Below, one piece after another: positions 3,363 through 62,761 of a stretch of DNA of 64,000 nt; position 1 is the first letter of the stretch, and the number at the start of each line of letters is the position of its first letter. The position numbers and the translations under genes were made by a program. The notes under the pieces are model-generated. The model was not told the origin of the DNA and did no database searches. It saw only the letters and a program-made list of their open reading frames with translations. Source of the DNA: Eledone cirrhosa (Eukaryota); contig OZ024747.1 of assembly GCA_964016885.1 (NCBI GenBank), positions 63,116,001 through 63,180,000 of the forward strand, written 5' to 3'.

Positions 3363-3835
3363 AGAGTTAAAGATTAAGTGATTTCATTACATACCTCATT
3401 AAATCTTATAAGTGATTCAAGTACTGAGCCAAGAATTTTGTATGAAAATGGAGGTGTGGCTATCAACCAGTGTGATGTATATAGTAAGTTCAATGGAATA
3501 AACTTTTACTCTAAAAGATTTACCTTATTGATAACTAGAAACATTCCTTTGTACCAATTTAACCTCTCTTCCCTTTATCTCCCACTAATATTAATCATAT
3601 GAGGTCAAGTTTATTCCTGAACAATGTGTTACTTGGGTCTGTTGTAACTAAAGGAATTAATCCTTTTGTAACCATATTTCTGTTGAAATATACTGTTTAT
3701 ATCATCATCATGTTATGTCTGCTTTCTATGCTCACATTGGTTGGTCCAATACTATATGGGTCATAGAAATATGACTTGCTCATATGTTCCATATTTTGGT
3801 ATGCTTTCTATAACTGGATGCTCTTCCAAATGTCA

Positions 3836-39056: not shown

Positions 39057-40233
39057 CATAGGTTTATTTGATCAGGGCTGATACGATGCTAGACAAATAC
39101 AACAACAACAACAACAACAAAAACAACAACAACTCTTACTCACTGAACATGTCGGCTATTCTCTTAATTCTTTCAGTTCCTTCTACCACTTCTAAATATC
39201 ACTTGTTATCAAGTCATTCACATATATTGATTTTAGATCAATGAATAAAAGGTAGAGTTGTTTGTTCATCACCAAGTAGTTTTCTTTCAACTCTCTCCAA
39301 TCAGGAAAAAATTCTCAACATTCTAACTGTATTCCAAACAACTCATCTTAGTTTATCTTGTCACAGCTTCTCTATAAATTTCATGGCAAGCTTGTCTCAA
39401 GTTTTGTTTGTTTCTTAGTCATTTCATTTTAATTTTCGTCTGAAAAATTAGTTTTTTCTTCCTTTATGTCTTCTGATTCTCTAATAAATAAATGTGTTTT
39501 ACTTGTTTTTAACACACACAGACAAACAAACACACACACACGTGTGTGTGTGTGTTTGTGTGAAACAGGCATTAAAAGCCATTTCTAAAACACTCAAACA
39601 TGAAATATGACTATGGAAAAAAATGACTATATACATCTACATAGTATTCTGAGTATATATTCTAAATCTATGGATTATTTTTTGAAGGAAAATCAATATT
39701 TCAATAAATAATATAATAAACGTTGTGATCAAGTATCTATACACAATATATATTAAACATTCAATCGTAATTTTAAAGTAAAATGTTCAATAAAATTTTA
39801 AAGTAAAATTAAAAGAAAACGACATTAAGAAATTTACATATATATCAGAATTAATTTTTAAAATAACTTTTAATAGCCAAACAAATTTCCAATATAAAGA
39901 TTAATAAGAATTTTTTCAGAAAACAAATAGCAAATAATTCAATGACAGTTAAACACACTTTCCTTTTTACTGCCATCAAATTTCTTGAGTTGTTAGTAAT
40001 TATTCCATTTCAACATATTTTATACGATAGTCATCTATTGATCTCAATAAATGTTATAAAGTTATTTTCACATCTTCGAATCATTTAACTCATCTCATTT
40101 CATTAATTGAAATCCATTAAATGATTTTTGCGGAAAATGGCATAAATGATGTTTTAGAATTGTAAATAATTAACAGAAATATCCCTTGTTGGACAGATTT
40201 CAGCTAATATATATATATATATATATATATATG

Positions 40234-40410
40234 TATTTAATATAGAAAAGCTTCTACAGGACTAGAACTGTTTCATTCAGAAGAAATCATCAGGGCTTCC
40301 TGATGATTTCTCCCGAATGAAACAGTTCTAGTCCTGTAGAAGCCTTTTCTATATTAAATATTTATACTCTGCTTTGTATTGAGTACCTTACTTACTGTAG
40401 TTACTCCAGA
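40234..40410. mobile_element. Fold-back element (palindrome 40234-40360 plus 3' extension) between (TA)n tracts
   Basis: tatttaatatagaaaagcttctacagg...cctgtagaagccttttctatattaaata. Confidence 0.7.
40292..40346 (+). ncRNA. Type I hammerhead ribozyme
   Basis: Stem I agggcttc / gaagcctt; CTGATGA 40300-06; short stem II ttc-tccc-gaa with U.U first pair; GAAA 40319-22; stem III CAG-ttctagtc-CTG; triplet GUA, predicted cut after 40338. Confidence 0.75.
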
Positions 40411-40426
40411 TTGAACCTGGGATGAA

Positions 40427-40488
<62 letters not shown>

Positions 40489-40821
40489 ATATATATACTG
40501 TAAATTGGTTGTGTAGAGTGGCACAACATGAAGCGCACACTGTAAATATGATTGGTGTTAGAAAAAGCATCTAGCCTTAAAAACCAAGCCAGAAACAGTT
40601 TTGTATGAGCATGACATAATCACCTGATCCGATTTGCCTCAAACAGGACAACTCGTCTAATCCATGCTATCATGGAAAATGTATGTTAAACGATAATGAT
40701 AAAAAATATATATATACACACTCACACCTGGTGCCTGGGTAGTGAATTGCTTAAGATGTGAAAATTACATTTTGGTCTGGATGGTATTGTGTAGTGGTAC
40801 AGATACAATTTGATCTTTCAC

Positions 40822-43611: not shown

Positions 43612-44220
43612 TGTCATCACCTCTTCCCTCCTCAGTCATCTCTAGTGTATGACGTCATCACCCCTTCCTTCCTCAGTCATCTCTAGTGTATGACGTCATC
43701 ACCCCTTCCTTCCTCGTTCATCTCTAGTGTATGGCGTCATCACCCCTTCCTTCCTATATCATCTCTAGTGTGTGACGTCATCACCCCTTCCTTCCTCAGT
43801 CATCTCTAGTGTATGGCGTCATCACCCCTTCCTTCCTCAGTGTGTGACGTCATCACCCCTTCCTTCCTATATCATCTCTAGTGTGTGACGTCATCACCCC
43901 TTCCTTCCTATATCATCTCTAGTGTATGATATCAACACCCTTCCTTCCTCAATCATCTCTAGTGCGTGACGCCATTACTCCTTCCTTCCTCAGTCATCTC
44001 TAGTGCATGACGTCATCACCCCTTCCTTCCTATATCATCTCTAGTGTAGTGTATGATATCAACACCCCTTCCCTCCTCAGTCATCTCTAGTGTGTGACGC
44101 CATTACTCCTTCCTTCCTCAGTCATCTCTAGTGTGTGATATCATCACCCCTTCCTTCCTCAGTCATCTCTAGTGTGTGATATCATCACCCCTTCCTTCCT
44201 CAGTCATCTCTAGTGTGTGA
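43612..44220. repeat. 41-bp minisatellite, ~14 copies
   Basis: Unit cctcagtcatctctagtgtgtgacgtcatcaccccttcctt; followed by (GGAT)n and cactttatatatagat, a Helitron/HINE-like end. Confidence 0.92.
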
Positions 44221-44850: not shown

Positions 44851-44902
44851 GGCTTTCCTGATGATTTCTTTTGAATGGAACAGTTCTAGTCCTGTAGAAG
44901 CC
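44851..44902 (+). ncRNA. Mutated hammerhead ribozyme, same family as 40292-40346
   Basis: ggctttc CTGATGA tttcttttgaat GGAA CAG ttctagtc CTG TA gaagcc; GAAA changed to GGAA. Confidence 0.65.
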
Positions 44903-45372
44903 ATTTCTATATTAAACATGATATATATATAATCAAACCAATATCTAACTCCAATCTGGCACCAGCCACAGGATTCAACATTAACATAGAGTGCTTTTCT
45001 ACTATTACATCATGGTAAACTAAATGGAATGACCAGTTCTATCCTGTGGTGAACCACTAAACATAAATATATATATATATATACACATATGTGTGTGTGT
45101 CTGCCACAACAAATTGTACCCAACCCACTTTATAAAGTGGTAGTGCTTGTACCACGATAAAAGCACCCTGTCCACTCTGTCAGGTAGTAATGGCATTGTC
45201 ACAATAAAAATTCACCTGGTACATGCCATGAATTGAATGCCATTAGAGAACGATGCCATTCCCCAAATAGAGACAATCATCAAAATGGAATGTATGTCCT
45301 CAGAATATGACAACCTGTCTAATCTATGCAAGCATCGAAAGTAAACATAAAATAGTGGGGATATTATATATA

Positions 45373-61998: not shown

Positions 61999-62761
61999 TA
62001 TAAATATATGGAATGGCATACTCATGTGGATTCTGTTAGTATATGTGGTGAGAGTTAAGCTCTGTAGGGCAAGTGATTAACCATTAAGATGAGGTGATTA
62101 TAATCCAAGCCAGGATTAATTTAAACCATCTTAGATAGCCTTTACACTTATCAAGGCATTTCGTTCAATTGGGTTTGTTTGGGTCAGAGGAGTGGCAAGA
62201 GTTAATAGGAAAGGTGATAATCTTAGCTAATTTAAGCTACCTTGGGTGGTTTTTACACTTATCAAAGAGCTTCTTCTACTGGGTTCTCCTTGGCTCGGAG
62301 TTAAGGCAAGGCTAATACATATACTAACACAATAATGAATGTACATACATATATTTAAACATTAATGTACATATCTGAATGGTTAAGCAGTTTGCTTTGG
62401 AATCATTAGGTCCAAGATTCAGTTCCCCTACATGGCATCTTGAGCAAGTGGCACTCACCATAACATCTGGTCGACCTGTGACTTGTGAGTGAAATTTGGT
62501 AAGAATGAAACTGTTTGGAAGCTTGTTGGTTGGACTGTACATGCAATTAAAAGGGCCAGCTTTGTCCCCAAATTTTGTCACATTGAATCTCTCTGAGATT
62601 GAAAATAAGAGTGCACATACTTGTAGAATGTTCAAACACTTGCATGTTAATCTTATGAGCAGGCTGTCCTGATGATTGAACAATTGAAACACTCATCGTT
62701 GGAACTGATGGAAGTGTATTGAAATATATAAACATACATATATGTATATATATATATATAC

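What the first reader, a model, noticed from the sequence alone, without database searches (positions are those of the whole stretch)
40234..40410. Third hammerhead family: GUA site, 4-bp stem III, inverted copy truncated at the core
Seen: agggcttc-CTGATGA-tttctcccgaat-GAAA-CAG-ttctagtc-CTG-TA-gaagcctt, with no sequence similarity to the other two apart from the core. The upstream inverted copy begins almost exactly at CTGATGA and lacks its stem I 5' strand, so only the + copy is complete. The element sits between (TA)n tracts. The U.U first pair in stem II is atypical. Inference: this is a truncated inverted pLTR-type junction.
Basis: partly seen in the sequence, partly recalled or inferred. 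Interest (0 to 1): 0.72.

Follow-up and report, generated by a model that had tools for sequence, protein, structure and literature searches.

The report
Hammerhead ribozyme motif in abundant retroelement
This stretch is one copy of a very abundant short mobile repeat that carries all the sequence hallmarks of a hammerhead self-cutting RNA and was likely spread by Penelope-like retrotransposons, so it is a new example of a known kind of element and not a new principle.

Summary
At 40292-40346 (+) the window has every conserved hammerhead core nucleotide: an 8-bp stem I, a 3-bp stem II closed by a U.U, a 4-bp stem III and a GUA site. The upstream minus-strand copy starts one base before its CUGAUGA and lacks the stem I 5' strand. 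Both lie between (TA)n tracts.

It is one insertion of a repeat family with at least 25,095 exact copies of the ribozyme's 3' half in this 3.0 Gb genome.

Subfamilies keep stem I through two compensatory pair changes, and the 3' hairpin through another. Stems II and III never vary. No Rfam hammerhead model matches, and the fold is no more stable than shuffles.

Across loci, 49 of 71 carry a head-to-head inverted partner with variable breakpoints, usually one long arm and one short arm. Of the 169 arms examined, 129 end in (TA)n. This matches the published insertion anatomy of Penelope-like elements. No coding partner was found and tandem arrays are rare.

Cleavage and transcription are untested because no RNA data were available. 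A by-sequence look-up found no earlier scan note on this family. Verdict: new member of a known kind.

The parts
40207..40244 (.). Left (TA)n tract, the likely target microsatellite
   Evidence: TRF period 2, 19.5 copies
40235..40294 (-). Inverted short arm. It is a 5'-truncated copy that begins one base before CUGAUGA and ends at ...tatattaaata next to (TA)n. Its core is present but the stem I 5' strand is missing.
   Evidence: BLAST to the + copy covers positions 8-75 at 92.6%.
40292..40346 (+). Complete type I hammerhead motif: stem I 40292-40299 with 40339-40346, CUGAUGA 40300-40306, stem II and loop 40307-40318, GAAA 40319-40322, stem III and loop 40322-40337. The predicted cut is after A40338.
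   Evidence: Sequence. The MFE fold is this three-way junction. Sole descriptor hit in the window. Stem I covariation.
40347..40362 (+). Linker ttctatattaaatatt. In many other copies the element stops here (the 'short' 3' end) and (TA)n follows.
   Evidence: Bimodal 3' ends
40363..40427 (+). Tail present on 'long' arms only, including the highly conserved block gtattgagtaccttacttactgt(a/g)gttac
   Evidence: The 29-mer has 12,703 exact genomic hits and the control has 0. Alignments.
40405..40421 (+). 3' hairpin UCCAG-auugaac-CUGGG. By analogy it is the likely site where reverse transcription is set up.
   Evidence: Fold. Covariation across 81 copies: pair 10-31 is CG 36, UA 29, UG 5.
40429..40497 (.). 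Right (TA)n tract
   Evidence: TRF period 2, 34 copies
44851..44922 (+). Second copy of the family in the window. It is a short form without an inverted partner, and its core is damaged (GGAA instead of GAAA).

Best explanation
The finding is one insertion, into a (TA)n microsatellite, of a short non-coding repeat present in at least 25,000 whole or partial copies in this genome. Its 5' part has every conserved nucleotide and the three helices of a type I hammerhead ribozyme, and it is predicted to self-cleave after A40338, likely only weakly as a monomer and better as a dimer.

Shown directly:
- the motif itself;
- the copy number;
- two alternative 3' ends, short at about 15 nt and long at about 90 nt past the cut site;
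- 5' ends clustered at the start of stem I;
- frequent head-to-head inverted partners made of one long and one short arm, with variable junctions;
- microsatellite flanks;
- compensatory changes in stem I and in a 3' hairpin.

Inferred: the family is a non-autonomous passenger of Penelope-like retrotransposons, whose reverse transcriptase-endonuclease would cut both strands of an AT-rich target. Each strand would then prime a cDNA at one of two internal start sites near the 3' hairpin, and the two cDNAs would be joined head to head. This would give the truncated inverted copy seen at 40235-40294.

Also inferred: transcription of master copies starts at the first bases of stem I. The rarer long copies carry a TATAAATA-like box at a fixed 36 nt before CUGAUGA, so the ribozyme would sit at the very 5' end of the RNA. 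In this locus a transcript through both arms would fold into a 60-bp hairpin and the ribozyme would likely be inactive.
For: Motif and chance.

Fold: the isolated + copy has the hammerhead junction as its MFE (-11.6 kcal/mol). The loop III palindrome CUAG gives a predicted dimer of -33.2 against 2 x -11.6.

Copy number: 7,605 exact hits for the ...GAAGCC 26-mer, 17,490 for the ...GAATCT variant and 12,703 for the tail 29-mer. The reversed-pattern controls gave 0 in all three searches.

Covariation: on 34 copies (27 distinct), 33 picked by the tail alone plus the window's own + copy, stem I pair 7-53 is AU 22, CG 3, UG 2 and never unpaired. Pair 5-55 is AU 16, GC 3, GU 2, other 6. The score is 0.074 against 0.028 for shuffles (0 of 500 reach it), and the slid controls reach at most 0.052. 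For the 3' hairpin the score is 0.301 against 0.206 (0 of 500), with slid controls at most 0.162.

Insertion anatomy: 49 of 71 loci are inverted pairs. 27 of these are long plus short, and 9 more are short plus an arm that runs off my margin. 48 of 65 headless direct arms begin 1-8 nt before CUGAUGA.

Flanks: a microsatellite follows 67 of 80 arms and 79 of 89 arms. (TA)n accounts for 54 and 75 of them.

Head: the TATA-like octamer lies 36 nt upstream in 13 copies, plus 6 scored at 46 because my anchor slipped 10 nt.

The genome is rich in PLEs: 10,596 first-look GIY-YIG candidates, and 150 of the 150 scored pass the Pfam cut-off.

Literature:
- PLE insertions show 5' truncation, an adjacent inverted 5'-truncated copy, an extension at one end and a microsatellite bias (PMC8557442, passages).
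- A PLE protein cleaves and extends both strands and starts reverse transcription at two internal sites (PMC11167929, main text).
- An axolotl hammerhead with a U.U at the base of helix II cleaves, and cleaves better as a dimer (PMC7229834, passages).
Against: - No Rfam hammerhead model matches the window copy, even at E<=10 on 59 nt. A canonical PLE hammerhead from the same genome scores 28.9 bits.
- The fold is no more stable than shuffles (z -0.61). An E-type copy does not take the hammerhead fold as its MFE.
- The usual G10.1-C11.1 pair is replaced by U.U.
- Stems II and III never vary, so covariation says nothing about them. The stem I signal rests on a few subfamily-level events.
- DNA copies do not start preferentially at the predicted cut site: about 5 of 89.
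- Only 25 of 89 tail-anchored copies and 12 of 80 arms pass the full descriptor.
- No coding PLE with this tail or ribozyme was found in 32 GIY-YIG loci. The family copies near 3 of them are ordinary (TA)n insertions.
- No RNA data are available, so the strand, the transcription start and cleavage are all untested.
Confidence: 0.7

Rival explanations
1. The hammerhead-like block is a relic or a coincidence and does not cleave. It is conserved because it serves as a protein-binding or RNA-dimerisation element of the retroelement.
For: Rfam is silent. Helix II is weak, with a U.U, and the z-score is not significant. There is no excess of copies starting at the cut site. In the one PLE studied in vitro, hammerhead cleavage needed protein and was not required for insertion (PMC11167929, main text).
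Against: All 11 core positions, A15.1-U16.1 and a non-G at position 17 are kept in every subfamily seen. Stem I is kept by compensatory changes. The full descriptor gave 0 hits in 300 shuffles. A U.U variant is known to cleave (PMC7229834, passages).
Confidence: 0.2
2. It is a classical animal (non-LTR) retrozyme: a tandem repeat transcribed as an oligomer, cut to unit length by the hammerhead, circularised and copied back into DNA.
For: It is a type I hammerhead in a short AT-rich non-coding repeat in an animal genome that is rich in PLEs. Retrozymes are reported as PLE derivatives with variable monomer fractions (bioRxiv 10.64898/2026.07.22.740005, abstract and passages; PMC7229834, passages).
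Against: Among the first 100 listed places of the 26-mer there is one same-strand neighbour within 1 kb, and it is two separate insertions. Among the first 100 places of the tail there are none. Copy boundaries lie at stem I and at the tail, not at the cut site.
Confidence: 0.08
3. It is a SINE moved by a LINE, and the inverted arm comes from twin priming.
For: It is short, non-coding, 5'-truncated and high in copy number. LINE reverse transcriptases lie nearby in some loci.
Against: The two arms cover the same part of the element. Twin priming would give adjacent, non-overlapping parts. There is no poly(A), the two discrete 3' ends pair up as long plus short, and there is a (TA)n bias. No LINE tail homology was seen, though none was searched for systematically.
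Confidence: 0.07
4. It is a foldback element or MITE, a DNA transposon with inverted repeats and TA target duplications.
For: Near-perfect 49-60 nt inverted repeat flanked by TA repeats. The hairpin is -86 kcal/mol.
Against: The outer ends are not inverted copies of each other (short end against long tail). 22 of 71 loci are single arms. The palindrome centre varies from locus to locus.
Confidence: 0.03

Closest known systems
Hammerhead ribozymes of Penelope-like elements and other metazoan type I hammerheads (Cervera and de la Pena 2014, PMC4209133; Cervera and de la Pena 2020, PMC7229834)
   Same: Type I topology, the CUGAUGA...GAAA core, a stem I of about 6 bp, a short helix II, a palindromic loop III that allows dimers, residence in a retroelement repeat, and very high copy number. 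The U.U at the base of helix II has a precedent in the axolotl HHR_Amex2.
   Different: Helix III is longer (4 bp with an 8-nt loop) than the 1-2 bp with 2-4 nt loops described there. The site is GUA. Rfam's type I model does not score it. Cleavage is untested.
Penelope-like element insertion architecture (Craig et al. 2021, PMC8557442; Frangieh et al. 2024, PMC11167929)
   Same: 5' truncation, an adjacent inverted 5'-truncated copy, an extension present at one end only, two alternative 3' ends, AT-rich or (TA)n targets, and a hammerhead close to the end of the unit.
   Different: No RT/GIY-YIG ORF and no partial tandem (pseudo-LTR). The one-sided extension is about 65 nt, not 30-40 bp. The coding partner is unknown.
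Animal non-LTR retrozymes (PMC7229834; bioRxiv 10.64898/2026.07.22.740005)
   Same: A short non-autonomous hammerhead-bearing repeat, thought to derive from PLE terminal repeats.
   Different: It is dispersed as monomers and inverted pairs, not tandem arrays. The unit boundaries are not at the cut site, and no circular RNA evidence exists.

Membership tests
Hammerhead ribozyme, type I | Core C3 U4 G5 A6 N7 G8 A9 and G12 A13 A14 | tested here: met
   CTGATGA 40300-40306 and GAA 40319-40321. Invariant or nearly invariant in 34 aligned copies, 33 of them tail-anchored.
Hammerhead ribozyme, type I | A15.1-U16.1 pair followed by a non-G residue at the cleavage site | tested here: met
   A40322 pairs with T40337, then A40338 (GUA)
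Hammerhead ribozyme, type I | Three helices around the core, with stem I open | tested here: met
   The MFE of 40292-40346 is that junction: stem I 7-8 bp, stem II 3 bp, stem III 4 bp
Hammerhead ribozyme, type I | Helices supported by compensatory changes | tested here: inconclusive
   Stem I: yes, two pairs. Stems II and III never vary.
Hammerhead ribozyme, type I | G10.1-C11.1 closing pair of helix II (the usual case, not an absolute rule) | tested here: not met
   U40307 and U40318 face each other. A precedent with activity is in PMC7229834 (passages).
Hammerhead ribozyme, type I | Match to the Rfam covariance models (RF00163 and relatives) | tested here: not met
   No hammerhead row at the gathering score, or at E<=10 on 401 nt or 59 nt. 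Positive control L223 scores 28.9 bits. For family copies L126 and L012 there is none among the 150 rows shown; 7 lower-scoring rows were not shown.
Hammerhead ribozyme, type I | Site-specific self-cleavage | not testable with these tools
   No RNA run was listed. Contigs cannot show ends.
Penelope-like element (insertion type) | Adjacent inverted 5'-truncated copy with variable breakpoints | tested here: met
   49 of 71 loci. In the window, 40235-40294.
Penelope-like element (insertion type) | Extension at one end only, with two alternative 3' ends | tested here: met
   27 of 49 pairs are long plus short, and 9 more are probable
Penelope-like element (insertion type) | AT-rich or microsatellite target | tested here: met
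   (TA)n of 4 units or more follows 54 of 80 arms and 75 of 89 arms
Penelope-like element (insertion type) | ORF with a telomerase-like RT and a GIY-YIG endonuclease in the element or in a partner sharing its end | tested here: not met
   No ORF in the long form. No homology in 32 GIY-YIG loci beyond inserted copies.
Animal non-LTR retrozyme | Head-to-tail tandem arrays of 170-400 bp units | tested here: not met
   1 of 100 and 0 of 100 listed places have a same-strand neighbour within 1 kb, and that one is two insertions
Animal non-LTR retrozyme | Unit-length circular RNA | not testable with these tools
   No RNA data

The most novel reading that the evidence does not exclude
The hammerhead sits at the extreme 5' end of a promoter-driven passenger RNA. 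Through its palindromic loop III it acts first as an RNA dimerisation handle. Two template RNAs held together at their 5' ends would be copied from the two cut strands of a (TA)n target by a dimeric Penelope-type enzyme, each from a different start site. This would explain why insertions are so regularly one long arm plus one short arm joined head to head at the ribozyme.
Probability: 0.1. Interest if true: 0.6.

Novelty: new member of a known kind. Interest (0 to 1): 0.35.

Why it matters
The family adds a large hammerhead family, with at least 25,000 ribozyme halves, that the standard Rfam models miss entirely. Hammerhead counts in animal genomes may therefore be underestimates.

Its very regular anatomy is a genomic footprint of what was recently shown in vitro for one vertebrate Penelope-like enzyme. 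The anatomy includes two discrete 3' ends, long-plus-short inverted pairs and 5' ends at stem I. The family could serve as a natural data set for that mechanism.

The U.U helix II, the 4-bp helix III and the palindromic 8-nt loop make a testable variant for the monomer-versus-dimer question.

Tried and rejected
- A plain DNA search of the own genome with the 68-nt element found nothing, not even itself. The tool skips very common words, so I used exact patterns.
- No RNA holder was listed. The four coded runs are contigs of unknown kind. About 15,000 pieces per run match the family but cannot show RNA ends or strand.
- Candidate 'full-length' elements, picked from same-strand 26-mer pairs 6-7 kb apart, had no RT ORF.
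- The upstream similarity of head-bearing E copies turned out to be microsatellite-rich repeats without ORFs.
- Partner search: 12 best GIY-YIG loci plus 20 with long open frames showed no homology to the head, ribozyme or tail. The only matches were three loci with ordinary (TA)n insertions of the family, which is about what chance predicts for about 200 kb.
- I looked for DNA copies starting at the predicted cut site and found no enrichment.
- A tRNA-like reading of the tail (B-box resemblance) was considered from the sequence and dropped. There is no A box at the proper distance and no T-arm pairing.

Full report
OBSERVATION

The quoted sequence is in the window at the stated place. On the + strand, agggcttc (40292-40299) precedes CTGATGA (40300-40306). 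Then come tttctcccgaat, GAAA (40319-40322), CAG-ttctagtc-CTG, T40337 and A40338, and finally gaagcctt (40339-40346).

The minus-strand copy has its CTGATGA at 40293-40287. The bases before it cannot pair with its own 3' strand, so only the + copy is a complete motif. The arms are 49 nt, 94% complementary and 4 nt apart. TA tracts lie at 40207-40244 and 40429-40497.

The core-with-gap pattern occurs 3 times in the window against 0.30 expected. A full descriptor covers the core, stem I of at least 5 bp, stem II of at least 3 bp with a free first pair allowed, stem III of at least 3 bp, and U followed by a non-G. It hits only the + copy and nothing in 300 dinucleotide shuffles. I wrote the descriptor after seeing the motif, so it is tailored.

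A REPEAT FAMILY, LONGER THAN THE FINDING

The 26-mer from GAAA to the stem I 3' strand has 3,755 + 3,850 exact genomic matches. A variant ending GAATCT has 9,856 + 7,634. A 29-mer of the downstream tail has 6,377 + 6,326. The reversed-pattern controls gave 0 in all three searches.

Aligned copies show that the unit continues past 40410 to about 40427. A second, damaged short copy lies at 44851-44922.

The samples below come only from the first 62 Mb (26-mer) and 43 Mb (tail) of contig C1, and they were picked by exact matches. Rows dropped before counting:
- L008, L022, L024, L026 and L028, which are the same places as their neighbours;
- eleven loci (the L001 type) that hold one fragment embedded in another multiplied repeat;
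- the mistyped L183.

IS IT A HAMMERHEAD?

For:
- All core positions, the A15.1-U16.1 pair and a non-G at position 17 are present. They stay invariant or nearly so in 34 copies, 33 chosen by the tail alone plus the window's own + copy.
- The isolated + copy folds into exactly the three-way junction as its MFE.
- Subfamilies differ in stem I by paired changes, ggcttc/gaagcc against agattc/gaatct. Pair 7-53 is AU 22, CG 3, UG 2 and never unpaired. Pair 5-55 is AU 16, GC 3, GU 2, other 6. The covariation score is 0.074 against 0.028 in shuffles (0 of 500 reach it) and at most 0.052 when the partners are slid.
- Loop II varies freely between subfamilies (UCCC, UUUU, UAAU, UAAA, UACC, UCAC) while its stem does not.
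- Loop III contains the palindrome CUAG. The predicted dimer is -33.2 kcal/mol against -23.2 for two monomers. This fits the dimer model for metazoan and PLE hammerheads (PMC4209133, part 1 of the text).
- A U.U at the base of helix II is known from an axolotl hammerhead that cleaves, and cleaves better as a dimer (PMC7229834, passages).

Against:
- No Rfam hammerhead model matches at the gathering score, or at E<=10 on 401 nt or 59 nt. A canonical PLE hammerhead from the same genome reaches 28.9 bits.
- The fold is no better than shuffles (z -0.61).
- An E-type copy does not take the hammerhead fold as its MFE.
- Stems II and III never vary, so they carry no covariation evidence. The stem I signal reflects a few subfamily events, not many independent ones.
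- Only 25 of 89 tail-anchored copies and 12 of 80 arms pass the descriptor.

With the inverted arm included, the window locus folds into a 60-bp hairpin of -86 kcal/mol. That hairpin would outcompete the ribozyme fold.

HOW THE COPIES ARE BUILT

BLAST of 88 distinct 26-mer-anchored copies against two real reference copies, tallied, gives 71 loci. Of these, 49 are head-to-head inverted pairs and 22 are single.

The 3' ends are bimodal. Short arms stop about 15 nt after the cut site, at ...ttctatattaaat. Long arms stop about 90 nt after it. The pairs break down as:
- 27 long plus short, and 9 more short plus an arm that runs off my 150-nt margin;
- 5 short plus short;
- 1 long plus long;
- 7 that involve an intermediate end.

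Direct-arm 5' ends lie 1-8 nt before CUGAUGA in 48 of 65 headless arms, with modes at -1 (11 arms) and at -8/-7 (14 arms). Inverted-arm breakpoints spread from -8 to +88.

A microsatellite follows 67 of 80 arms (TA 54, CA 8) and 79 of 89 tail-anchored copies (TA 75).

The tail ends in a 4-5 bp hairpin supported by covariation. Pair 10-31 is CG 36, UA 29, UG 5, other 9. The score is 0.301 against 0.206 (0 of 500), with slid controls at most 0.162. In the window it lies at 40405-40421.

THE HEAD

A minority of copies carry about 195-240 nt upstream, giving a unit of about 380 nt with no ORF.

In these copies a TA[TC]A[AT]ATA box starts 36 nt before CUGAUGA in 13 copies. In 6 more my script reported 46 because it anchored on CTAATGA inside loop II. 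That places the box about 30 nt before the first base of stem I. A CCAAT motif lies further upstream.

The intervening 22 nt differ between subfamilies while the spacing is kept. I infer a polymerase II-type start at stem I, which would explain why most copies begin there and lack the head. This is untested.

COMPARISON WITH WHAT IS KNOWN

PLE insertions are described as 5'-truncated, often with an adjacent inverted 5'-truncated copy, a 30-40 bp extension at one end only, and a bias to microsatellites, (TA)n in Naiads. Canonical hammerheads are present in all clades but Naiad and most Chlamys (PMC8557442, passages).

A purified PLE protein cleaves and extends both DNA strands and starts reverse transcription at two internal RNA sites. 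[quoted passage not shown]

Animal retrozymes are reported as non-autonomous PLE derivatives with variable monomer fractions (bioRxiv 10.64898/2026.07.22.740005, abstract and passages).

The family here matches the PLE insertion anatomy point for point, except that no coding partner was found. The genome holds many PLEs: 10,596 first-look GIY-YIG candidates, with 150 of 150 scored above the cut-off. The 32 loci I read share nothing with this family beyond three ordinary (TA)n insertions of it.

It is not a tandem retrozyme. Among the first 100 listed places, 1 (26-mer) and 0 (tail) have a same-strand neighbour within 1 kb. DNA copies do not start preferentially at the cut site, about 5 of 89. 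That is neutral, given the in vitro result above.

EARLIER SCAN NOTES AND LITERATURE

Notes on this genome describe other, rearranged hammerhead-like families tied to Naiad elements. I did not test them. No note matches this family by sequence or place.

My literature searches found no description of this particular family. I could not search by sequence or by species, and the supplements of the cited papers were not read.

VERDICT

The motif is very probably a genuine, atypical type I hammerhead inherited within a Penelope-type non-autonomous retroelement. Its activity is unproven and probably weak or dimer-dependent. The inverted truncated copy is the normal insertion scar of this class, not a pseudo-LTR junction. 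This is a new member of a known kind.

Noticed in passing
window 62669-62690 (+): A third CTGATGA...GAAAC match. By eye a long helix III is possible, but helix II (ttgaacaatt) and stem I do not pair, and my descriptor rejects it.
   Followed up: partly
L214:4367-5900 (G000:C3:308732200-308738500): Four head-to-tail repeats, about 490-510 nt apart, each with CTGATGA-tagctaacaagctt-GAAAC, downstream of a GIY-YIG ORF. This looks like a retrozyme-like tandem array of a different hammerhead family. L215 has a related copy.
   Followed up: no
L223:251-294 (-) and 3492-3535 (+): Two canonical PLE-type hammerheads in opposite orientation about 3.2 kb apart. Both score 28.9 bits on Rfam Hammerhead_1, below the gathering score of 34.
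   Followed up: no
L001, L002, L003, L004, L005, L009, L014, L015, L065, L072, L093 (contig C1): One 5'- and 3'-truncated fragment of the family sits inside another, larger repeat that has itself been multiplied with near-identical flanks.
   Followed up: no
own genome: The E-type 26-mer is strand-asymmetric genome-wide (9,856 forward against 7,634 reverse). The other two patterns are balanced. This may point to a large one-directional array or duplication somewhere.
   Followed up: no
window 43613-44220: Tandem array with periods of 41 and 128 nt, 15 and 3.1 copies, unrelated to the family.
   Followed up: no
L007, L027, L056, L087, L121 flanks: Another repeat that starts with (ATC)n/(GAT)n followed by ...cgttttacgtcc...ctagcatgg... 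lies directly beside several family copies. It may be a second microsatellite-targeting element.
   Followed up: no
L141 and L142 (G000:C1:2873000-2882400, 2989500-2998900): Blocks of about 2.1 kb, rich in microsatellites, occur as large inverted repeats around head-bearing E copies and are about 80% alike between the two loci.
   Followed up: no
window 40345, 40374, 40280: At these positions most of the contig depth from the coded runs reads another letter than the window (for example A for T at 40345 in about nine tenths). The window copy therefore belongs to a minority subfamily.
   Followed up: partly
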